A program made the position numbers and the translations under genes. Positions 4,175-37,036 of a stretch of DNA of 38,675 nucleotides are shown here, one piece after another. The stretch lies in the IMG/VR virus record IMGVR_UViG_2563366911_000004; one strand, written 5' to 3'. The stretch's first letter is position 1, and the number at the start of each line of letters is the position of its first letter. The notes below the pieces were generated by a model. That model ran no database searches. It saw only the letters and a list, made by a program, of their open reading frames with translations, and was not told the DNA's origin. Source of the stretch: a virus. Taxonomy: Duplodnaviria > Heunggongvirae > Uroviricota > Caudoviricetes.

Positions 4175-4504
4175 CTATGCCACGACCTGTTCAAAATCTG
4201 CCGTTATGGTTACCCACAACGCCCCCACGCTTGCCGACCATTTACGACAAACCACCCTGATCGGCTTCCAGTCATAAGGTGGCGTCCACTGAAATGCGCG
4301 GACGCCACCGTGCCGTTCCAGAAAGGCTTTTAAAGATGGGTGTTCACATTTACGAACACGTATCGTCACGCTGTAAGTCGACAACTGGTTATTCAGTCCC
4401 GCCGCACGACGCTGTTCATAACCATCGCCCAGCTTCACTGTCACCACTTTCGGCTCTGATACCACATTCATATCCGGGCGCACTTTCCAGTGAAACGTCT
4501 CCAT
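4175..4504 (-). CDS. M: Minor tail protein M
   Basis: 109 aa, METFHWKVRPDMNVVSEPKVVTVKLGDGYEQRRAAGLNNQLSTYSVTIRVRK...; lambda M-like, immediately downstream of the tape measure gene. Confidence 0.85.
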   Translation of the reverse strand: METFHWKVRPDMNVVSEPKVVTVKLGDGYEQRRAAGLNNQLSTYSVTIRVRKCEHPSLKAFLERHGGVRAFQWTPPYDWKPIRVVCRKWSASVGALWVTITADFEQVVA

Positions 4505-7500
4505 TACCGATATGCTCCACTTAACCGACCACCATCACGGGCCTGCTGTTGCATAAAGTCCGCTGCCGCTTTTTTCCCAAGGTCATAAACCACCTTCAGG
4601 GCAGCCGGACCTATCTGCCCGTTCGTGCCATCGTTATTGATCTCGATGTTGTACTGCGGGGCAAACATCGCCATACCTGAACCACCAATATCCGCCACAA
4701 CCCCCAGCTTACCGTCAGCACCACGACGCAGTGGCAGAATGGCTTCAGGTCCAGCTTCCCCCATCACACCCGCGCCTTTTGCAAAAGCAAAAAACGTCGG
4801 ACGGTTAACCACCGTGCCACTGTAACGACTCAAATCAGCAGACTGATAAATCCCCCCATTGGCATTCAGGGAAAGGCTGCTGAGATCAAATCCCAGTACA
4901 CTGCCAATCCCTTTTATCGATTTCATCATGGTTGCCTGCGCCAGGATTTTCGCCATATCTGACAGCACCGAAGAGGTGAAGGATTTGAAGTTGAGTTTGC
5001 CGGTAGTGACAAAAGTTGCCAGGCCATTTCCCATGTTGCTGAAGGCTGACGAGAACACCTGTTCTGCTGTTCCTGCCGTATTGTCTGCATCCACGGTAAA
5101 ATCCTGAAATGCACGCAGGACTCCGTTTTTCCAGTTACCCTGCACAACTTCAAGCTGTTGCCAGTAACGGCGATTCTCATTCAGTTGTCGGTTCAGGCTC
5201 TCCGTCAGCGCCTGCTCGGCCTTTCTGTAGTCATCCGTGTTATATGTCCCTTTCTGCTCACTATCCCGCCTCAACTGCTCCAGCTGTTGCTGGTATTTCT
5301 GGCGAAGACTCAGTTGTACCTGATATCGCTGCCGCTGCTGATCACCCATACCCACCGTGGCGATATCCAGGTCATGTTGCTGACGCTGAGCGAGCTCTTC
5401 TTCAGCCAGTTGACTGGTCAGCTGAATTGTTTTTTTCTTCAGATCGTTGAGTGCCGTCTGTTTCTGAAGCTCCTGCTGTTTTACATCCAGCAGCGTCAGT
5501 GCCTGAATCAGTTCATCTTTACGGGCCAGCACACTCTTTTCATCTGCCGTCAGTTTTTTCCCGTCCAGATCGCTGATGCGCTGCTGCAGAGCCAGAAGCT
5601 GTTTATGCGCTTCTGTCATCTTTTCAGTGGCAATGCCTGCTGACTGTCTTGCAGCAGCAATCTGTCCTTCCACCTGTGCCTGTTGCTGACTGTACTGCAG
5701 CAATAACCGGGTGGCCTCATCATTACGGGTTTCGCGTGTTTTTTTCTTACCGGATGCCAGGGCTTTCTCGTAACGTTCATTTTCACGTTGTATCGCTGCA
5801 TCCCTGACAGCCTGATCGGCGTACTGCATGGAATTAATACGCGCAATTTCACGCTGATGTCGTGCTGCTTCCGTTTCATTCATCCGGTTCAGTGCAGCAT
5901 TTTCAGCATTACGTCGTTTCTGTTGCTCCTGATAATTCCGCTCTGCCTGCTCTTTTGCATCCTGCAAATCCTTCTGGCGTTTTTTCTCCTGAAGATCGTT
6001 AAGACGCTGCTGATCGTATTCAACCTGAGAAGATGATGCCGTCCAGGGGAGTCTTTTCGCCCGCGACACTTTCTCCTGTAAAGCGGCAATCTGTTCATCC
6101 AGCGAGTCTTCACGACCAATATTCATGGCCGCATCCCAGAAACGACTCCACAAATCAGACAGATACTTCAGCGTACTGCCAAGCGCATTGAGGTTATTAT
6201 CAATATCCGCAGTACGCCGACCGGTTTCCTCTGCCAGTGCAGACATGGCTATCCGTGCAGCATCACTGGACCGTCCCTGATCCCCAAGGACACGTATCTG
6301 CTCAAGCTGAGTGGCAGTAAGAAAATGCAGCTCATTGTCCAGAGCCTTCGCGGCATTTACAGGATCATCCTTCAGCCGCTTAAACTGATTTATGGTATCG
6401 CTGACCGACTGGCCAACCGATCGCTCCATCTGTGCGGCAGCTCTCGCCACCATACCGATATCGTTTCCACGAAATGCACCACTCCCCACCACCTGAGCCA
6501 GCACACCGGCTGCAGCATGTTGCGTGATACCATTCCCGGAAATAGCACGACTGAGCGTCCACAGCTGCCCGGCAGTGACTCCGGCATAATGCCCCGTCAG
6601 CGACAACTGGCGGTTAAATTCTTCCCCCTCCTTCTGACCGTCATACCAGGCTTTACCCAGACCATAGACGGACGCGGCAATACCGCCAATAACCCCGCCA
6701 AGCATCATGCCTTTCGGTGACATCAGAGTGTCTATCCATCCGGCACGGTTAGCCAGCGTTATCCCGGATCCCCTCAGCGCCCCTAAATTGCCGCGGGCCA
6801 GTTCACCTATCAGAACGCCTATCTCCTGGCGGGCCGCTGCACTTTTCAGACCCAGCGAATGCGTGGCTTTTCCTGCCTGCTCCATTTTGCGGATATACAC
6901 TTCTGCAGCACTGCTTACCCCCAGCTGGGCAGCCTTAGCACGAAGCAACTCAGAAGAAGAAAGATTCTGGCGGGTTGCCTGCTCTTTAAGCTGACGGATA
7001 AACGCCACTTTCTGTCGGGTAGCCTCTTCCTCAGCCTGCGTAAGAACACGGGTTTTCGCCGTAACCTCAGAAATCAGCGCCAGATAATCCTGCTGACCAA
7101 TCCCGCCACTGTTTCTGGCCTGTCGGATCTGCTGCTGAATACGCTGTAATTCCTGCAGCCCCGCACTGGCCTGTTTCACACTGTCAATCTGACGATAAAA
7201 CGCAGCAGCTGCTTTATCCTGAGCCTCCGCCAGAGCCATGGCCTGCGCCTGTTCCTCGCGCATTTTCTGGCTCAGTGCCTCCATACGCTGGCGGGTTTTC
7301 TCCACCTCGCGGGCCATGCGTTCATGAGCCTGTGCGTTCTTCTCCACCGTCTGCGCATGGACGGATGCGGCTGTTGCAGCCGAAGACGCCGCCTGCGTTG
7401 TCTGCCGGGCGGCCTGAGTCTGACGCTCCATAAAACGCTGCATACGGGCAGAAGACCGTTCTGCATCGCTGGCTGCACCATTCAGAAGGTTTTTGATACG

Positions 7501-7599
7501 GGGAATTTCATTTTTAAACTCTGCCGCATCAATCCCCAAATCAATGACCAGGTTGGCTATCTGGTCCATAACGCACACCTCCGGAAATACCTTCCCCAA
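4504..7599 (-). CDS. Tail tape measure protein (lambda H equivalent), 1031 aa
   Basis: Long coiled-coil-rich ORF (Q/A/E/R/K-rich heptad-like stretches), Gly-rich hydrophobic segment (GMMLGGVIGGIAASVYGLG), located between the G/T chaperone pair and M. Confidence 0.85.
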   Translation of the reverse strand: MGKVFPEVCVMDQIANLVIDLGIDAAEFKNEIPRIKNLLNGAASDAERSSARMQRFMERQTQAARQTTQAASSAATAASVHAQTVEKNAQAHERMAREVEKTRQRMEALSQKMREEQAQAMALAEAQDKAAAAFYRQIDSVKQASAGLQELQRIQQQIRQARNSGGIGQQDYLALISEVTAKTRVLTQAEEEATRQKVAFIRQLKEQATRQNLSSSELLRAKAAQLGVSSAAEVYIRKMEQAGKATHSLGLKSAAARQEIGVLIGELARGNLGALRGSGITLANRAGWIDTLMSPKGMMLGGVIGGIAASVYGLGKAWYDGQKEGEEFNRQLSLTGHYAGVTAGQLWTLSRAISGNGITQHAAAGVLAQVVGSGAFRGNDIGMVARAAAQMERSVGQSVSDTINQFKRLKDDPVNAAKALDNELHFLTATQLEQIRVLGDQGRSSDAARIAMSALAEETGRRTADIDNNLNALGSTLKYLSDLWSRFWDAAMNIGREDSLDEQIAALQEKVSRAKRLPWTASSSQVEYDQQRLNDLQEKKRQKDLQDAKEQAERNYQEQQKRRNAENAALNRMNETEAARHQREIARINSMQYADQAVRDAAIQRENERYEKALASGKKKTRETRNDEATRLLLQYSQQQAQVEGQIAAARQSAGIATEKMTEAHKQLLALQQRISDLDGKKLTADEKSVLARKDELIQALTLLDVKQQELQKQTALNDLKKKTIQLTSQLAEEELAQRQQHDLDIATVGMGDQQRQRYQVQLSLRQKYQQQLEQLRRDSEQKGTYNTDDYRKAEQALTESLNRQLNENRRYWQQLEVVQGNWKNGVLRAFQDFTVDADNTAGTAEQVFSSAFSNMGNGLATFVTTGKLNFKSFTSSVLSDMAKILAQATMMKSIKGIGSVLGFDLSSLSLNANGGIYQSADLSRYSGTVVNRPTFFAFAKGAGVMGEAGPEAILPLRRGADGKLGVVADIGGSGMAMFAPQYNIEINNDGTNGQIGPAALKVVYDLGKKAAADFMQQQARDGGRLSGAYR

Positions 7600-7870
7600 G
7601 ATGCATCAGTTCTTCGTCCGTTCGCTCCGGTATCCCGTTCTCTTCCGGTAAAAGGCTGAAATCAGCCACCGCAGCATCACTGCTGCCGGACACCATTCTC
7701 ACGATCAATGCCTTCAGCGAGGCAAACTGCGCATCCATCCACACATCACTGAAGCTCTGCATCCGGAAATAATCGCCCCACTCACCAAGCTCAGTGGCCG
7801 ACATTTCCGACAGCATCCGCCGCCAGTCTGCCCGCCGGAACTCCCGGGCAAGCCGCATGACAAACTGCAT
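7541..7870 (-). CDS. T: Tail assembly chaperone T segment, probably expressed only as G-T fusion via -1 frameshift
   Basis: -1 frame relative to G is open from 7903 through 7541; no SD in front of the ATG at 7870; classic G/GT arrangement upstream of the tape measure gene; 3' end overlaps H start by 59 nt. Confidence 0.7.
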   Translation of the reverse strand: MQFVMRLAREFRRADWRRMLSEMSATELGEWGDYFRMQSFSDVWMDAQFASLKALIVRMVSGSSDAAVADFSLLPEENGIPERTDEELMHLGEGISGGVRYGPDSQPGH

Positions 7871-7878
7871 TTCCCGCG

Positions 7879-8307
7879 TCAGGACTTTTCCGGCGTCAGC
7901 ACCTCATGCTCCAAATCCCCGGCATTATCAATGGCCCCCATACCGCTCAGCGACAGAACCATCTCCGCCCCCGCACCCAGGGCATCATACGACCATGTTG
8001 TAATAACGGATGCGTAAAGCGTCTCAACATCCTGAGACTGTTCCGCATTCCACAGTGAGCGGGAAACCAGCCAGGCATTGATATCCATCCCCATCCGCAG
8101 AAAAGCAATCTGTCGTTCAGCCTCCGGCAGTTCTCCCTCCCCGGCATCAAACTTTGCCGTTCGCTGCTGAACAAACATCAGATATTCAATTCTCTGCAGC
8201 CCGGACAGCTCACTGAGCACCACGGACTGTTTTTCATAATTAAACGTGTCCTGTTTCAGAAACATCATGTTCTCCACCTGCAAAAAAGCCCCGAATAACC
8301 GGGGCAA
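7879..8307 (-). CDS. G: Tail assembly chaperone G
   Basis: MFLKQDTFNYEKQSVVLSELSGLQRIEYL... resembles lambda G N-terminus (MFLK...TLSELSALQRIEHL). Probable true start ATG at 8265 (GGTGGAGA SD), giving ~128 aa. Confidence 0.8.
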   Translation of the reverse strand: MPRLFGAFLQVENMMFLKQDTFNYEKQSVVLSELSGLQRIEYLMFVQQRTAKFDAGEGELPEAERQIAFLRMGMDINAWLVSRSLWNAEQSQDVETLYASVITTWSYDALGAGAEMVLSLSGMGAIDNAGDLEHEVLTPEKS

Positions 8308-8325
8308 ATGATGAGTATCGTCCTG

Positions 8326-9144
8326 TTAACCTGCTGCGCTGACAGTCACCGCAGCCACAGCCACAAAATTCCCGTCAGCGGTCATGCCCACAATGCTGAC
8401 ACTGCCCTGCTTCACGCCTTTTACCGTGGCCACAAGTCCGTTCAGGGTAACCGTGGCAGTCTGTGGATCTGACGAATGCACACTGATCGCTTTGTCACTG
8501 GCTCCGTCAGGTTTTACTGTAAAGGTCAGCGTGGTGGTTGCTCCCACTTTTACACTGGCAGATGCCGGTGATACTGTCAGCCCGGTAACGCTCACGGTTT
8601 CAGTGCCTTCCTCTGCCAGATACGGACGCCCCACACCGCTGATTTTCACAGTGCGGGTCATCACGTCTTTTGAGGCAATGGTTTTACCCAGTGAGCTCAG
8701 CCAGCCACGGAAAACATCAACAGTGCCGTTGGGATATTTGATACGAAACGCGCAGACTTCACCGGAGTCGAACAACTGAACCAGTTTTTTCTGCCCGCTG
8801 TCACCCGGACGCCAGGCCAGCGTCGCCGAAGTATCACCAACGGATTTCTGCCCCTGGGTTGTCGTTTTCCAGTCTGCATCTTCATCATCGAGATAAGTGT
8901 CATCTTCTGCATCAGCGGTCATTTCGCCAGGTTGCAGATCCTTCACCATCGCAAGACGCAGCCAGTCAGTGTCCGATAAAGGGTTCGCAAACGCATCGCC
9001 CTTGCCGGTATACATCCAGAACGTCGTTCCCGCACCTTTCGTTTTTGCCAGTGGATTTGGTGTGGTCATTACCACCTCCTTAATTCGTGTACGTGATCTG
9101 GTACGTGATTTCCGCCATCGCCCAGGTGGCCATCTCATTATCAC
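8326..9144 (-). CDS. V: Major tail protein V with C-terminal Ig-like (Big_2-type) domain
   Basis: ...KGAGTTFWMYTGKGDAFANPLSDTDWLRLAMVKDLQPGEMTADAEDDTYLDDEDADWKTTTQGQKSVGDTSATLAW...NGTVDVFRGW... matches lambda V pattern. Probable true start ATG at 9069 preceded by TAAGGAGGTGGTA, giving ~247 aa. Confidence 0.9.
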   Translation of the reverse strand: MIMRWPPGRWRKSRTRSRTRIKEVVMTTPNPLAKTKGAGTTFWMYTGKGDAFANPLSDTDWLRLAMVKDLQPGEMTADAEDDTYLDDEDADWKTTTQGQKSVGDTSATLAWRPGDSGQKKLVQLFDSGEVCAFRIKYPNGTVDVFRGWLSSLGKTIASKDVMTRTVKISGVGRPYLAEEGTETVSVTGLTVSPASASVKVGATTTLTFTVKPDGASDKAISVHSSDPQTATVTLNGLVATVKGVKQGSVSIVGMTADGNFVAVAAVTVSAAG

Positions 9145-9493: not shown

Positions 9494-10056
9494 AACCTCA
9501 GTTGTTGTTTCAGTGCATACCCCAGCTGTTTCGGCATTTCCGCAGCAATGATGCGGTCGCGGGCATCTTCAAATGCCTGTGTCAGCGGTCCGGACAGCGG
9601 GATTTTCACCACATCAATGGGGTAACGATTTTTGCCATCAATACGCCGCATCACATGCCAACGACCATTCGCCAGTTGCTGAATAAACGCATCCCGGAAA
9701 AGATATTTACCCACCTTCAGCACACTGCCACGGTACTGCAGTTTTCCACCACGCCGGGCCAGTCTGACCCGGGCTGTCCCCAGCTTAATGGCAGGCAGAT
9801 TGCCCCGGTTAACGCGGATCCTGGCCGTCATTTTTCCTGACGGACTGGCTTTAAACACCCGGACACGCTGACGTACCAGTTTCAGGAGGATCCCTTTCAC
9901 CTGGTTATCTCCCGCAACGGTATTCCCGGCAACCTGCCGGGTGGTAACCGAGACCGCTTTCTGTGCCACACGGTTTATCGCCCATGCGCTGGCCTGTGGC
10001 ACCATACGGGTATCAAGGCTGTTCAGATTGCGGATGGCATTCTCAAGCCCCTTCAT
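9478..10056 (-). CDS. Z: Tail completion protein Z
   Basis: 192 aa, same length and position as lambda Z, between the head-completion genes and U. Confidence 0.8.
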   Translation of the reverse strand: MKGLENAIRNLNSLDTRMVPQASAWAINRVAQKAVSVTTRQVAGNTVAGDNQVKGILLKLVRQRVRVFKASPSGKMTARIRVNRGNLPAIKLGTARVRLARRGGKLQYRGSVLKVGKYLFRDAFIQQLANGRWHVMRRIDGKNRYPIDVVKIPLSGPLTQAFEDARDRIIAAEMPKQLGYALKQQLRLWLTR

Positions 10057-16542: not shown

Positions 16543-17100
16543 CTAGAGACTCTCTCCTTCCTCATCAGGAATTAATTCAGCAGCACAAGCCTCGTAGGAT
16601 TTTTCCTGAAGAGTGTATCGCAGGTCATCAATTGCCTGCTGTACAACGCCGACGGCCTGAGGAGTCAGGGCGCAATCGCGTTCAAGAACATCCGGAATTG
16701 TCTCCAGAACCTGGACGACAGCCTTTCTCATGGACGAATAGACGATGACTACTTCATCAACGGGGATGAGTTTTCGCTGCTCCTTTTCCAGCTTGATCCT
16801 TTCATTTTCAGACTGGTACCAGTCCTTTCTCTCTTTCGGCTCCATACGGGATGGATCATGAACAGAGTCTGCTGCCTCATGCTTCACACTAAACAGGGCT
16901 GGCCCGACATGCTGCAGGGCGTAAACGGGGTTCCCCCTGACAGTCGCAGCCACAGGAGTGTTGGCCGCGAGAAGCCGTTTTTTTACTGTGTCCCGGTGAA
17001 GCCCAAAGGCCTCAGCGATTTTAAAAACACTCCAGTAATAAGCATCACCGATCCCGCTCACATTTGACATAAGCAACTCCATCTGGCAGGTGAAAATCAT
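16543..17100 (-). CDS. Terminase small subunit (Nu1-like, N-terminal HTH)
   Basis: Precedes the large subunit with 9-nt spacing. Probable true start ATG 17070 (MSNVSGIGDAYYWSVFKIAEAFGLHRDTVKKRL..., GGAG 8 nt upstream). Confidence 0.7.
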   Translation of the reverse strand: MIFTCQMELLMSNVSGIGDAYYWSVFKIAEAFGLHRDTVKKRLLAANTPVAATVRGNPVYALQHVGPALFSVKHEAADSVHDPSRMEPKERKDWYQSENERIKLEKEQRKLIPVDEVVIVYSSMRKAVVQVLETIPDVLERDCALTPQAVGVVQQAIDDLRYTLQEKSYEACAAELIPDEEGESL

Positions 17101-24360: not shown

Positions 24361-25432
24361 TTGCCAGCGCGCGATCGATAAAACGAAATATCAGCTCCAG
24401 TTGGGAGCCATACTTCTCTTCAAATGCCACTGTATCCGTATGCAGCTCGTTGTGATGCTTTCTGCACAAAGGCAACACAAAGAGATCATGTGCTTTTGTT
24501 CCCATTCCGCCCTGCCCGTGACCAATCAGATGATGCGGATCGTCGGCTGGCATACCGCAGCAAGCACACGGCTGTGTCTTAACCCAACGAGTGTATTTCT
24601 CCTTAACCCAGCGGCGACGTTTAGGCAGCTTCATGAAAGATTCCGGAGACTCTGGATCAACGTTGATGCTTACCACCGTCTTTTCCTGTGATGGGTTTTG
24701 TTGCTGGTGGGCGTAAGGCAACGGTGCAAGATTTTTTGTGCGTTGTTTCAATATGCTGGTGGCGGTCTGCTCTCCCGGTACGATGTCGCTTTCGCGGTAC
24801 ACCGAGCAGATTTTTTCCGCTGGTAATCCCAGCGAACGACGCGATACAGCCTCAGGTAGTGCATCCACCACCTGATTGCAGACCGCCCACCAGGATAATT
24901 CAGCCAAAGATAATTCCCGCTCCTGCGTACCGCTTATTGCGTGACGGATGACGTCAATCACCCATGCTGTCAGATTTTGTTGAGCAAGCAGCTCCAGTGA
25001 TTCCGATGTCTGGTCACGCAGTTGGTTGTCGCAGTGCCAGCACAACACCATTGCGCCGGTACCATAACGGTGAATGACTGTTTCAGTGTGATGGTAATCG
25101 CCATTAGGCCACTGGCAGGATGTAACATGACGTAATAGCCAGTCAGACAATGCGCCAACGCCGCCAGCAGCACGAATCACCCGTTCGTTACTAAAAAACG
25201 GTAGCAATGTTTTGTCTTCCGCCAGCGGCTGGCGAACGGCAGGAACGACTCCGGATGGCAGATTACGCATGCTTTTTGGTTCCGGTTCCACCAGCACTCG
25301 AGGATTATGAAATATCTGTATGGATTCACGGCCCGGCTTAAGGACCACCAGCCCAAGCTCAGGCACCAGAACAGGTCTAAGTAATACCCGCACGTTACCT
25401 CCAGATCCGTTGCTGGAAAGTGCGGGACGCAC
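24344..25432 (-). CDS. DUF968-family protein (YdfU-like) with C-terminal Cys/His zinc-finger or HNH-like motif
   Basis: C-terminus ...TQPCACCGMPADDPHHLIGHGQGGMGTKAHDLFVLPLCRKHHNELH.... Start uncertain: ORF-track start overlaps the upstream gene by 38 nt. Confidence 0.65.
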   Translation of the reverse strand: MRPALSSNGSGGNVRVLLRPVLVPELGLVVLKPGRESIQIFHNPRVLVEPEPKSMRNLPSGVVPAVRQPLAEDKTLLPFFSNERVIRAAGGVGALSDWLLRHVTSCQWPNGDYHHTETVIHRYGTGAMVLCWHCDNQLRDQTSESLELLAQQNLTAWVIDVIRHAISGTQERELSLAELSWWAVCNQVVDALPEAVSRRSLGLPAEKICSVYRESDIVPGEQTATSILKQRTKNLAPLPYAHQQQNPSQEKTVVSINVDPESPESFMKLPKRRRWVKEKYTRWVKTQPCACCGMPADDPHHLIGHGQGGMGTKAHDLFVLPLCRKHHNELHTDTVAFEEKYGSQLELIFRFIDRALAIGVLA

Positions 25433-34564: not shown

Positions 34565-37036
34565 ATGAGTAAAGTCTTTATTTGCGCCGCCATTCCGGAC
34601 GAACAGGCAATAAAGGAAGAAGGTGCCGTCGCTGTAGCCACTGCCATTGAAGCCGGTGATGAACGTCGCGCCCGCGCAAAATTTCACTGGCAATTCCTGG
34701 AACATTATCCGGCTGCTCAGGACTGCGCTTATAAATTTCTTGTTTGCGAGGATAAACCCGGTATACCCCGCCCTGCCCTCGATTCCTGGGATGCTGAATA
34801 TATGCAGGAAAACCGCTGGGATGAGGCGTCTGCTTCCTTTGTCCCGGTCGAGACTGAATCCGATCCGATGAACGTCACTTTTGACAACCTAGCCCCTGAA
34901 GTACAGAACGCTGTCATGGTTAAGTTCGACACATGTGAAAACATCACTGTTGATATGGTGATTAGCGCACAGGAATTGTTGCAGGAAGACATGGCAACAT
35001 TCGACGGCCATATCGTTGAAGCGTTGATGAAAATGCCAGAAGTTAACGCTATGTATCCGGAGCTTAAGCTGCATGCCATCGGGTGGGTTAAGCATAAATG
35101 TAAGCCTGGTGCCAAATGGCCCGAAATTCAGGCAGAGATGCGCATCTGGAAAAAACGTCGCGAAGGTGAACGCAAGGAAGCCGGAAAATACACGTCTGTT
35201 GTTGATCTCGCCCGCGCCAGAGCCAATCAACAGCACACTGAAAATTCAACAGGAAAAATCAACCCGGTCATTGCTGCCATTCATCGCGAATACAAGCAGA
35301 CATGGAAAACACTGGATGACGAACTGGCCTACGCTCTCTGGCCTGGTGATGTGGATGCCGGAAACATTGACGGCAGCATCCATCGCTGGGCAAAAAATGA
35401 AGTTATCGACAACGACCGCGAAGACTGGAAGCGTATCTCGGCATCAATGCGCAAACAGCCTGATGCCCTTCGCTACGACCGCCAGACTATTTTTGGCCTT
35501 GTCCGTGAACGTCCGATCGACATTCACAAAGACCCTGTGGCACTGAACAAATACATTACTGAATACCTGACTACAAAGGGCGTGTTTGAAGATGAAGGAA
35601 CAAATCAGAGCGCAACTGATACTCTCTCGTCGCCAGTACCAGAAACTGATGCAGTGGAAACGGCAATTCCAGACAACGAAAAAACCGAATGCAAAGTGGA
35701 AGTCGAACCATCTGTAGAACGTGAGGGGCCGTTCTACTTCCTCTTCACCGACAAGGATGGCGAAAAATACGGTCGCGCAAATAAACTTTCTGGTCTGGAT
35801 AAGGCGCTGTCTGCTGGGGCTACTGAAATCACGAAAGAAGAATATTTCGCCCGCAAAAACGGTACATACTCAGGTTCACAACAAAATACTGGTGCATCTG
35901 ACACGACCGCACAACCAGGGTCAGTAAAAGTTACCGCTGACGAAGTAAACAAAATTATGCAGGCAGCCAATATCAGCCAGCCTGACGCCGATGAACTGCT
36001 TGCAGTATCACGTGGTGAATTTGTTGAAGGGATTAGCGACCCGAATGATCCGAAATGGATTAAGGGGATCCAGACCCGCGATTCTGTGAACCAGAACCAG
36101 CAAGAAACGGAACAGAACGACCAGAAAGCGGAACAAAACAGCCCAAATACGCAACAAAACGAGCCAGAAACGAAACAACCTGAACCAGTAGTGCAACAGG
36201 AACCGGAAAAGATCTGCACCGCCTGCGGTCAGAGCGGTGGCGGCAACTGCCCTGATTGTGGTGCGGTGATGGGTGACGCAACATACCAGGAAATATTCGA
36301 TGGAGAGAATCAGCCTGAAGTTCAGGAAAATGATCCGGAGGAAATGGAAGGCACTGCGCATCAGCACAAGGAGAACACTGGCGGCAATCAGCATCATGCC
36401 AGCGATAGTGAAACTGGCGAGGCGTCAGATCCCTTAATTAAGGCAAACGGTCATCATAATCTCACATCCACCAGCAGAGCGGGGATTCATCTGATGATCG
36501 ACCTTGAAACCATGGGAAAAAATCCCGATGCCCCGATTATCTCAATAGGTGCAATATTTTTCGATCCGCAAACCGGAGATATGGGACCGGAATTTAGTAA
36601 GACTATCGATCTGGAAACTGCTGGCGGAGTCATTGATCGGGACACCATTAAATGGTGGCTTAAACAATCACGCGAAGCGCAATCTGCCATTATGACCGAT
36701 GAAATCCCGTTAGATGATGCACTGTTACAATTGCGGGAATTTATCGACGAAAACTCCGGTGAATTTTTTGTTCATGTCTGGGGAAATGGAGCCAACTTCG
36801 ACAACACGATTTTGCGCCGTTCATACGAACGGCAGGGGATCCCCTGCCCGTGGCGTTACTACAACGATCGCGATGTACGCACAATCGTTGAGCTGGGGAA
36901 AGCCATAGACTTCGATGCCAGAACGGCTATTCCATTCGAAGGTGAGCGCCATAATGCACTTGATGACGCCCGTTACCAGGCAAAATACGTTTCAGCTATC
37001 TGGCAAAAACTGATCCCGAGTCAGGCTGATTCTTAA
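34565..37036 (+). CDS. Large multidomain early protein (823 aa; YdfE-like by synteny) with central low-complexity Q/E/N-rich linker, a CxxC-x7-CxxC zinc ribbon and a C-terminal DnaQ-like (DEDDh) 3'-5' exonuclease domain
   Basis: C-terminal ~190 aa: ...HLMIDLETMGKNPDAPIISIGAIFFD...FFVHVWGNGANFDNTIL...RHNALDDARYQAKY... (Exo I DxE, Exo II NxxxFD, Exo III H-x4-D pattern). Zinc ribbon CTACGQSGGGNCPDCG. Located between ydfD and xis/int. Confidence 0.75.
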   Translation: MSKVFICAAIPDEQAIKEEGAVAVATAIEAGDERRARAKFHWQFLEHYPAAQDCAYKFLVCEDKPGIPRPALDSWDAEYMQENRWDEASASFVPVETESDPMNVTFDNLAPEVQNAVMVKFDTCENITVDMVISAQELLQEDMATFDGHIVEALMKMPEVNAMYPELKLHAIGWVKHKCKPGAKWPEIQAEMRIWKKRREGERKEAGKYTSVVDLARARANQQHTENSTGKINPVIAAIHREYKQTWKTLDDELAYALWPGDVDAGNIDGSIHRWAKNEVIDNDREDWKRISASMRKQPDALRYDRQTIFGLVRERPIDIHKDPVALNKYITEYLTTKGVFEDEGTNQSATDTLSSPVPETDAVETAIPDNEKTECKVEVEPSVEREGPFYFLFTDKDGEKYGRANKLSGLDKALSAGATEITKEEYFARKNGTYSGSQQNTGASDTTAQPGSVKVTADEVNKIMQAANISQPDADELLAVSRGEFVEGISDPNDPKWIKGIQTRDSVNQNQQETEQNDQKAEQNSPNTQQNEPETKQPEPVVQQEPEKICTACGQSGGGNCPDCGAVMGDATYQEIFDGENQPEVQENDPEEMEGTAHQHKENTGGNQHHASDSETGEASDPLIKANGHHNLTSTSRAGIHLMIDLETMGKNPDAPIISIGAIFFDPQTGDMGPEFSKTIDLETAGGVIDRDTIKWWLKQSREAQSAIMTDEIPLDDALLQLREFIDENSGEFFVHVWGNGANFDNTILRRSYERQGIPCPWRYYNDRDVRTIVELGKAIDFDARTAIPFEGERHNALDDARYQAKYVSAIWQKLIPSQADS

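What the first reader, a model, noticed from the sequence alone, without database searches (positions are those of the whole stretch)
7541..8307. G/T tail-chaperone pair with a probable -1 programmed frameshift at a non-canonical site
Seen in sequence: the T reading frame is the -1 frame of G, is open only from 7903 downstream, and lacks its own SD, so T must be made as a G-T fusion. The 22-nt window available for the shift (7882-7903, minus strand GGTGCTGACGCCGGAAAAGTCC) does not contain the lambda-type G GGA AAG heptamer; the only slippery-like element is CCG GAA AAG, allowing tRNA-Lys slippage from AAG to AAA. This would be a variant slippery site for a highly conserved recoding event.
Basis: partly seen in the sequence, partly recalled or inferred. 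Interest (0 to 1): 0.45.

Follow-up and report, generated by a model that had tools for sequence, protein, structure and literature searches.

The report
Ordinary phage G-T tail-chaperone frameshift site
This is the usual lambda-type tail-assembly chaperone gene pair of a common E. coli prophage, whose second protein is most likely made by a -1 ribosomal slip on GGAAAAG, a slip site already annotated in phage N15 and the commonest one in the lineages of this gene family that I sampled, so it is ordinary.

Summary
On the minus strand, G (8268-7879; Pfam Phage_TAC_2, 2e-40) is overlapped by a -1 frame that is open only from 7903. That frame encodes a lambda gpT homologue (Phage_tail_T, 5e-15). 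Its first ATG (7870) has no usable ribosome-binding site. The only slip-prone element in the 22-nt overlap is G_GAA_AAG (7891-7885).

This heptamer sits at the position homologous to lambda's G_GGA_AAG and differs from it by one base. It is invariant in all sampled relatives with G proteins about 30-100% identical, while the surrounding linker is hypervariable. T-frame protein conservation starts exactly at the heptamer.

The site is not new. The GenBank record of phage N15 marks the same GGAAAAG as "slippery sequence for -1 translational frameshift", and Gifsy-2's T is annotated as part of a frameshift hybrid. GGAAAAG occurs in about 15 of 18 sampled lineages; lambda's GGGAAAG is the minority form.

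I found no conserved downstream RNA structure. An upstream SD-like GAGGTG is suggestive but not statistically supported.

One mildly interesting point: biochemists use G GAA AAG as a poorly slippery control. RefSeq also annotates T as a separate gene in the one such genome I read; 1,847 complete E. coli genomes carry this G-T.

The parts
8326..9069 (-). Major tail protein gene (lambda V homologue with a C-terminal Ig-like domain); upstream neighbour of G
   Evidence: Pfam Phage_TTP_12 1.5e-66 and Big_2 5e-13
8288..8305 (-). Terminator-like hairpin GCCCCGG-TTAT-TCGGGGC followed by T6, between V and G
   Evidence: The equivalent element is annotated as a rho-independent terminator in the mEp460, Ayreon and N15 records.
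7879..8268 (-). Gene G, tail assembly chaperone, 129 aa, including stop TGA 7881-7879; SD GGTGGAG at 8278-8272
   Evidence: Pfam PF06894 Phage_TAC_2 2.2e-40; translation; SD
7900..7905 (-). SD-like GAGGTG, 8 nt upstream of the heptamer; possible dnaX-style stimulator, unproven
   Evidence: -9.2 kcal/mol to the anti-SD, in the top 7.5% of windows in its own G-T region. Not significant against synonymous resampling (Fisher p=0.096).
7904..7906 (-). TGA in the -1 (T) frame; 5' limit of the region where the shift can occur
7885..7891 (-). Shift heptamer G_GAA_AAG (CCG 7893-7891, GAA 7890-7888, AAG 7887-7885)
   Evidence: Same heptamer and frame as the annotated N15 slippery sequence. Invariant in relatives.
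7541..7885 (-). T portion of the predicted G-T fusion, read in the -1 frame from GTC 7885-7883 to stop TGA 7543-7541; the whole fusion is 242 aa
   Evidence: Pfam PF06223 Phage_tail_T 5.1e-15; fusion translation
7868..7870 (-). ATG used as the T start in GenBank and RefSeq annotation; probably not a real initiation site
   Evidence: No usable SD. Not conserved in Gifsy-type relatives. Annotated as the start in mEp460 and by PGAP.
4504..7569 (-). Tape measure protein gene (lambda H homologue); its start overlaps the end of T
   Evidence: Pfam TMP_2 7e-49 and Tape_meas_lam_C 3e-22; SD GGAGGTG -13.3 kcal/mol

Best explanation
G and T are the lambda-type tail assembly chaperone pair of an mEp460/cdtI-like E. 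coli prophage. Most ribosomes translate G to its stop and make the 129-aa chaperone. A small fraction slip back one base when GAA (7890-7888) is in the P site and AAG (7887-7885) is in the A site.

In that slip, tRNA-Lys re-pairs from AAG to AAA, which is fully cognate and favoured in E. coli. tRNA-Glu re-pairs from GAA to GGA, keeping positions 1 and 3 and leaving a G.U at position 2. Translation then continues with GTC in the T frame. The product is a 242-aa G-T fusion with the junction ...TPEK-VLTREMQF..., whose T domain links the tape-measure/G complex to the major tail protein, as in lambda.

Shown here: gene identities, frames, absence of a T start signal, positional homology to lambda's site, and conservation of the heptamer.

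Inferred: that slippage actually happens, its efficiency, and whether both tRNAs or only tRNA-Lys move.
For: - Gene identities and order V-G-T-H.
- T is in the -1 frame and is open only from 22 nt before the G stop.
- T has no ribosome-binding site.
- The site aligns base for base with lambda's GCG GGA AAG, and the peptide after the junction aligns with lambda, N15, mEp213 and Gifsy-2.
- In 11 G proteins 56-75% identical, the linker is hypervariable but the final P-E-K is invariant.
- In 409 G-T loci (210 unique sequences, 18 clusters at 85% G identity), GGAAAAG is present in about 15 clusters. It is also present in 8 further lineages.
- The Lys codon at the site is always AAG, although AAA makes up 75% of Lys codons in this window's genes.
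- Heptamer position 1 is G at the third base of four different codons (CCG, GCG, CTG, GTG). This argues that P-site re-pairing matters.
- At the same position other relatives carry G_GGA_AAG or A_AAA_AAG, both proven shift heptamers.
- N15's record annotates GGAAAAG as the slippery sequence, and Gifsy-2's T is annotated as a frameshift hybrid.
- Literature: A_AAG is the best -1 tetramer in E. coli (PMC4066793). A single A.U to G.U change in the shifted frame costs about 5 kJ/mol and is partly offset by the favourable G.S to A.S change at the A-site wobble (PMC6787027). tRNA-Glu re-pairing on GGA through G:U is discussed for phage chaperone sites (PMC10885494).
Against: - No experiment here or in the papers I could read shows shifting at this heptamer in a G-T context.
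- In a reconstituted E. coli system, AUG GAA AAG gave mainly 0-frame product and served as the "less slippery" control against G GGA AAG (PMC6924986).
- A_AAG without a stimulator is near background in vivo (PMC4066793).
- I found no conserved stimulator. The downstream fold has z=-1.2, the consensus structure is only -4.2 kcal/mol and lies far downstream, and there are no Rfam hits.
- In-frame G_GAA_AAG also occurs in other long ORFs of the window, so the heptamer alone cannot be very shifty.
Confidence: 0.85

Rival explanations
1. The same recoding event, but only tRNA-Lys slips (A_AAG tetramer or GAA_AAG hexamer mechanism). The P-site tRNA-Glu does not re-pair productively, or the shift occurs with tRNA-Lys in the P site.
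For: [quoted passage not shown] Single-tRNA A_AAG shifting is used by IS1222 and occurs in Bacillus cdd (PMC5009743). One relative has AGAAAAG and others have GCA AAA TAG, which offer little or no P-site re-pairing.
Against: The first G of the heptamer lies at a four-fold degenerate third position, yet it is G in nearly all lineages across four different codons. A pure single-tRNA model does not predict this. These codons are also the preferred E. coli codons, however, so the argument is only moderate.
Confidence: 0.3
2. T is an independent gene translated from ATG 7870, as GenBank and RefSeq annotate it, and no frameshift is needed.
For: mEp460, Ayreon and PGAP records annotate a separate T CDS from this ATG.
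Against: There is no SD at a usable distance. The ATG is replaced by ATT or CTT codons in Gifsy-type relatives. The T-frame peptide GK-V/A-L..E..F is conserved upstream of the ATG, back to the heptamer. From memory, lambda T is made only as G-T (Levin et al. 1993, cited in PMC5009743).
Confidence: 0.05
3. The fusion arises from transcriptional slippage in the A4 run rather than from ribosomal slippage.
For: The site contains a homopolymeric run, AAAA.
Against: From memory of the general literature, four A's are far shorter than the runs of about 7 or more known to give appreciable RNA polymerase slippage. Relatives keep AAG rather than lengthening the run.
Confidence: 0.02
4. The weak heptamer is boosted by a specific stimulator in this lineage, namely the SD-like GAGGTG 8 nt upstream (dnaX-like spacing), possibly together with the stop codon one codon after the site.
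For: GAGGTG pairs with the anti-SD at -9.2 kcal/mol. In 18 lineages with the stop one codon after the heptamer, most carry GAGG, GGAG, AGGAGG or AGGTG at the same distance (-5.6 to -15.3 kcal/mol). Thirteen N15/lambda-type lineages score +0.4 to -6.6. An SD-like element 10-14 nt upstream stimulates dnaX shifting (PMC6924986, PMC5009743).
Against: Resampling synonymous codons while keeping the peptide gives similar SD strength (per-lineage p 0.04-0.89, Fisher p=0.096). The pattern is therefore largely explained by the Glu-Ala/Val/Asp composition. Three lineages lack it (L113, L427, L428). N15-type sites use the same heptamer without it.
Confidence: 0.2

Closest known systems
Bacteriophage lambda G / G-T (-1 frameshift at G_GGA_AAG; Levin, Hendrix and Casjens 1993; Xu, Hendrix and Duda 2004, 2013, 2014, as cited in PMC5009743)
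   Same: Same gene order V-G-T-H, same Pfam families, T in the -1 frame without its own start, shift site at the homologous codons, and an alignable junction peptide.
   Different: Heptamer position 3 is A instead of G, so the P-site codon is GAA (Glu) rather than GGA (Gly), and re-pairing leaves a second-position G.U. The G stop lies one codon after the site instead of five. The G proteins are about 31-35% identical.
Phage N15 genes 14/15 (GenBank NC_001901 misc_feature 'slippery sequence for -1 translational frameshift', 10027-10033)
   Same: Identical heptamer GGAAAAG in the identical frame (GCG GAA AAG) at the homologous position. mEp213, mEp237, Enterobacter MStein-2023a and Klebsiella Kp4865-4 have the same.
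   Different: The preceding codon is GCG rather than CCG. The G frame continues five more codons. There is no SD-like element upstream. G is about 34% identical.
Salmonella prophage Gifsy-2 STM1039 / STM1041.1n ('part of G+G' frameshift hybrid protein')
   Same: Same ACG CCG GAA AAG TCC TGA architecture, 55% identical proteins, and a record that already treats T as a frameshift product and cites cdtI homologues.
   Different: It has no ATG at the position of window ATG 7870. The linker sequence is different.
E. coli dnaX (A_AAA_AAG with an upstream SD-like element and a downstream hairpin), and the A_AAG / CGA_AAG sites of IS1222 and Bacillus cdd
   Same: The A-site tRNA-Lys AAG to AAA slip is the core event. 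An SD-like element at a comparable distance is present in this window.
   Different: There is no downstream hairpin. The SD-like element is not statistically supported. The P-site codon differs.

Membership tests
Lambda-type tail assembly chaperone pair G / G-T expressed by programmed -1 frameshift | Two overlapping ORFs located between the major tail protein gene and the tape measure gene | tested here: met
   V 8326-9069, G 7879-8268, T frame 7541-7903, H 4504-7569, all on the minus strand
Lambda-type tail assembly chaperone pair G / G-T expressed by programmed -1 frameshift | Upstream ORF homologous to gpG and downstream ORF homologous to gpT | tested here: met
   PF06894 2.2e-40; PF06223 5.1e-15
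Lambda-type tail assembly chaperone pair G / G-T expressed by programmed -1 frameshift | Downstream ORF in the -1 frame, overlapping the 3' end of G, without its own initiation signals | tested here: met
   22-nt overlap. The ATG at 7870 has no usable SD and is not conserved.
Lambda-type tail assembly chaperone pair G / G-T expressed by programmed -1 frameshift | Strict X_XXY_YYZ slippery heptamer in the overlap | tested here: not met
   The only candidate is G_GAA_AAG, whose P-site codon GAA is not XXY. Annotated and sampled members of the family (N15, Gifsy-2 and most sampled lineages) also lack a strict heptamer, so in practice this is not a defining feature.
Lambda-type tail assembly chaperone pair G / G-T expressed by programmed -1 frameshift | Shift-prone motif conserved at the position homologous to lambda's site | tested here: met
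   GGAAAAG aligns with lambda GGGAAAG and is invariant in relatives. The heptamer columns are the only fully conserved block before the T coding region.
Lambda-type tail assembly chaperone pair G / G-T expressed by programmed -1 frameshift | G-T fusion protein made at a few percent of G and required for tail assembly | not testable with these tools
   Needs reporter assays, mass spectrometry and phage genetics
N15-type G_GAA_AAG shift site | Heptamer GGAAAAG with GAA and AAG as G-frame codons, followed by the T-frame peptide K-[V/A]-L..E..F..LAREF | tested here: met
   N15; window
dnaX-type stimulated -1 frameshift | SD-like element about 10 nt upstream of the heptamer | tested here: inconclusive
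   GAGGTG at 7905-7900, -9.2 kcal/mol. Not beyond amino-acid composition (Fisher p=0.096).
dnaX-type stimulated -1 frameshift | Stable hairpin or pseudoknot 5-8 nt downstream | tested here: not met
   z=-1.2 for the 105 nt downstream. No conserved structure near the site in 19 relatives. No Rfam match.

The most novel reading that the evidence does not exclude
G_GAA_AAG, which ribosome biochemists treat as a poorly slippery control, is the predominant natural G-T shift site in the sampled lambdoid phage lineages. This would mean one of two things. Either tail assembly tolerates a much lower G-T:G ratio than lambda's roughly 1:30, or these sites carry an unrecognised stimulator. Candidates for a stimulator are the SD-like GAGG element in the mEp460/Gifsy group, the conserved E-P-V-T/S-A codons in the N15 group, or the nearby stop codon.
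Probability: 0.2. Interest if true: 0.4.

Novelty: already known. Interest (0 to 1): 0.12.

Why it matters
It matters little for discovery. The recoding event is a textbook case, and this exact heptamer has been annotated in N15 for years.

There are two practical points:
- Annotation of this G-T splits it into separate G and T genes and so omits the real fusion product. This was checked in one RefSeq genome (PGAP) and in the mEp460 and Ayreon phage records. This G-T occurs in 1,847 of 5,426 complete E. coli genomes.
- The commonest natural form of the site in the sampled lineages is one that in vitro work treats as weakly slippery. Its real in vivo efficiency, and what tunes it, would be cheap to measure. 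The result would calibrate frameshift predictors that accept only X_XXY_YYZ.

Tried and rejected
- **Downstream stimulatory structure.** A single-sequence fold of 7884-7780 was not better than shuffles (z=-1.2). RNAalifold on 19 diverse junctions gave only a weak, invariant helix more than 38 nt downstream. Rejected.
- **Rfam scan of 7500-8350.** No match at E<=1.
- **Upstream SD-like stimulator.** The group difference was attractive, but synonymous-codon resampling gave Fisher p=0.096. Kept only as a low-confidence rival.
- **Heptamer rarity.** GGAAAAG is over-represented rather than avoided in the window (13 against 6.4) and occurs in frame in other ORFs. Rarity cannot be used as evidence.
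- **Genome-contig scan** with a G alignment returned only 13 loci.
- **Lambda G scan** of viral contigs returned only near-identical copies.
- **Xu et al. 2004** (Mol Cell) is not held in the library, so I could not confirm how that paper lists the N15 heptamer. The GenBank feature is my evidence instead.
- **Bare search for the heptamer string** in papers was uninformative.
- **Transcriptional slippage and independent T initiation** were considered and rejected (see rival explanations).

Full report
**What is there.**
Read on the minus strand, the region holds the standard lambdoid tail-assembly block:
- a major tail protein with an Ig-like domain (8326-9069; Phage_TTP_12 1.5e-66, Big_2 5e-13);
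- a terminator-like hairpin (8305-8288);
- gene G (ATG 8268 or 8265 to TGA 7881-7879, 129 aa; PF06894 Phage_TAC_2 2.2e-40);
- a -1 frame ORF homologous to lambda gpT (PF06223 5.1e-15);
- the tape measure gene (7569-4504; TMP_2, TMP_4, Tape_meas_lam_C).

The -1 frame carries a TGA at 7906-7904 and is open from 7903 to the stop at 7543-7541. This region has no strict X_XXY_YYZ heptamer. It does have G_GAA_AAG at 7891-7885, with GAA and AAG as G-frame codons.

The first T-frame ATG (7870) has only a GGGA abutting it (-4.3 kcal/mol, spacing 0). The starts of G, H and V have SDs of -7 to -16.6 kcal/mol at spacings of 2-5 nt.

**Where it comes from.**
The segment is 97-99% identical to E. coli phages mEp460, cdtI, Ayreon, Tritos, HannyBb and others. 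At 95% identity or more it is present in 1,847 of 5,426 complete E. coli genomes. The records I read (mEp460, Ayreon and one RefSeq genome annotated by PGAP) annotate T as a separate CDS starting at the ATG equivalent to 7870, with no ribosomal slippage.

**Homology of the site.**
Lambda reads TCT GCG GGA AAG TGT.... The window reads ACG CCG GAA AAG TCC TGA. A shift after Lys gives ...TPEK-VLTREMQFVMRLAREFRRADWRRML in the window and ...SAGK-VFDGELTFALKLAREMGRPDWRAML in lambda. The window heptamer is therefore the positional homologue of lambda's proven site and differs only at heptamer position 3 (GGGAAAG to GGAAAAG).

**Conservation.**
- Eleven G proteins 56-75% identical to the window protein have a hypervariable, indel-rich C-terminal linker that ends in an invariant P-E-K.
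- I collected more than 420 loci from IMG/VR, GTDB genomes, GenBank phages and assemblies.
- Of these, 409 had a recognisable G-T pair, giving 210 unique sequences and 18 clusters at 85% G identity.
- GGAAAAG occupies the homologous position in about 15 clusters. These span E. coli mEp460/cdtI types, Salmonella Gifsy-2 types, N15 and other Ravinvirus relatives, phi80-like mEp213, mEp237, Klebsiella, Enterobacter, Providencia, Superficieibacter and Symbiopectobacterium.
- In a 19-sequence alignment the heptamer columns are the only fully conserved block upstream of the conserved T coding region.
- The Lys codon is always AAG, although AAA is 75% of Lys codons in this window's genes.
- The first G of the heptamer is the third base of CCG, GCG, CTG or GTG in different lineages, with one AGAAAAG exception.
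- The ATG at 7870 is not conserved: Gifsy-type relatives have ATT or CTT there. The T-frame peptide G-K-[V/A]-[L/F]-x-x-E-x-x-F is nevertheless conserved from the heptamer onward.

These patterns are what a recoding site predicts. An independently initiated T gene does not predict them.

**Other motifs at the same position.**
- Lambda, PhiR5_1, PhiR12_2 and some Serratia and Symbiopectobacterium prophages carry G_GGA_AAG.
- VT1-Sakai and Stx1 phages carry TCA AAA AAG, that is A_AAA_AAG.
- An Ewingella group carries GCA AAA TAG.
- Providencia PSTCR8lys has GAA AAG directly followed by TAG.

The family therefore interchanges motifs that all place a Lys codon able to re-pair on AAA. Lambda's form is the minority among the lineages I sampled.

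**Is it new?**
No.
- The GenBank record of phage N15 carries a misc_feature, "slippery sequence for -1 translational frameshift", at 10027-10033. That sequence is GGAAAAG in the frame GCG GAA AAG.
- Gifsy-2's T homologue follows the same CCG GAA AAG TCC TGA and is annotated "part of G+G' frameshift hybrid protein", with cdtI proteins cited as relatives.
- The PRFect paper lists non-canonical "twofour"-type motifs among phage chaperone frameshift sites. It explicitly discusses tRNA-Glu re-pairing on GGA through G:U (PMC10885494).

**Mechanism.**
The best-supported reading is a -1 slip with GAA in the P site and AAG in the A site.
- tRNA-Lys (mnm5s2U34) moves to AAA. In E. coli this is the key determinant of efficient -1 shifting, and A_AAG is the best tetramer (PMC4066793).
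- tRNA-Glu moves from GAA to GGA, which changes only the middle pair from A.U to G.U.
- The thermodynamic model of Bock et al. puts an A.U to G.U change at about 5 kJ/mol. The favourable G.S to A.S change at the A-site wobble partly offsets this (PMC6787027). Their data concern first-position mismatches.
- Conservation of the heptamer's first G at a synonymous position favours a tandem slip over a pure single-tRNA slip, but only moderately, because those codons are also preferred codons.

Against high efficiency:
- Peng et al. used AUG GAA AAG as the "less slippery" control and saw mainly 0-frame product with wild-type EF-G (PMC6924986).
- A_AAG without a stimulator is near background in vivo.
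- In-frame G_GAA_AAG occurs in other long ORFs of this window.

**Search for stimulators.**
- The 105 nt downstream fold no better than shuffles (z=-1.2).
- Nineteen diverse junctions share no structure near the site.
- Rfam finds nothing.
- Upstream, the window has GAGGTG (7905-7900) 8 nt before the heptamer. It pairs with the anti-SD at -9.2 kcal/mol, at a dnaX-like distance.
- Lineages with the stop one codon after the site mostly carry GAGG, GGAG, AGGAGG or AGGTG at that distance. N15/lambda-type lineages do not.
- When the six upstream codons are resampled synonymously, the observed SD strength is not exceptional (per-lineage p 0.04-0.89; Fisher p=0.096). The pattern is largely a consequence of Glu followed by Ala, Val or Asp codons.

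I keep the SD-like element only as a low-confidence possibility.

**Verdict.**
The feature is an ordinary member of a well-known recoding family, and its "variant" heptamer is already annotated elsewhere. Two points are worth noting: the annotation of T as a free-standing gene in the records I read, and the mismatch between the site's prevalence in nature and its reputation in vitro as weakly slippery.

Noticed in passing
window 8288-8305 (minus strand): A strong terminator-like hairpin (GCCCCGG TTAT TCGGGGC followed by T6) lies between the major tail gene V and G, ending about 10 nt upstream of G's SD. The equivalent element is annotated as a rho-independent terminator in the mEp460, Ayreon and N15 records. 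It may set the V:G expression ratio.
   Followed up: partly
L430 and L435 (VT1-Sakai, Stx1_9793); L092, L109-L112 (Ewingella and IMG/VR); L431 (Providencia PSTCR8lys): Other motifs occur at the homologous G-T junction. Sakai and Stx1 phages have TCA AAA AAG (A_AAA_AAG). The Ewingella group has CTG GCA AAA TAG, possibly a P-site Lys slip at a stop codon. Providencia has CTG GAA AAG TAG, with the stop directly after the heptamer.
   Followed up: partly
L314 (AGAAAAG) and L308 (GGCAAAG), IMG/VR contigs: Two single-base variants of the heptamer occur among N15-like relatives. They could be tolerated weaker sites or decaying prophages.
   Followed up: no
proteins P0048, P0033, P0001: Database proteins in which G and T are fused in frame by deletions of the linker. 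P0048 joins ...WSYDA directly to GKVLTREM..., the T-frame reading of the heptamer. P0001 is a G with an internal duplication. These are probably defective prophages or assembly artefacts.
   Followed up: no
L421 (NZ_CP075061.1); window 7868-7870: PGAP annotates "phage tail assembly protein T" as a separate CDS from the non-conserved ATG in the genome I read (NZ_CP075061.1). This G-T occurs in 1,847 of 5,426 complete E. coli genomes, so the omission of the G-T fusion may be widespread; I did not check the other genomes.
   Followed up: partly
L259, L268, L083 and other N15/lambda-type loci, the 15 nt upstream of the heptamer: The codons for E-P-V-[T/S]-A (GAR CCN GTN WCN GCG) just before the heptamer are conserved in the N15/lambda group, although the rest of the G tail is variable. 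The cause is unknown; a nascent-peptide or mRNA effect is possible.
   Followed up: no
window, 13 sites, e.g. 36205-36211 (+), 24680-24686 (-), 16783-16789 (-): GGAAAAG is about twice as frequent in the window as in shuffles (13 against 6.4). It is in the G_GAA_AAG frame in several other long ORFs. No overlapping -1 ORFs were examined there.
   Followed up: partly
L084, L085: Genome bins labelled 'Bacillota bacterium' and 'Proteobacteria bacterium' carry a G gene 95-97% identical to this E. coli prophage. These are probably contamination or mis-binning.
   Followed up: no
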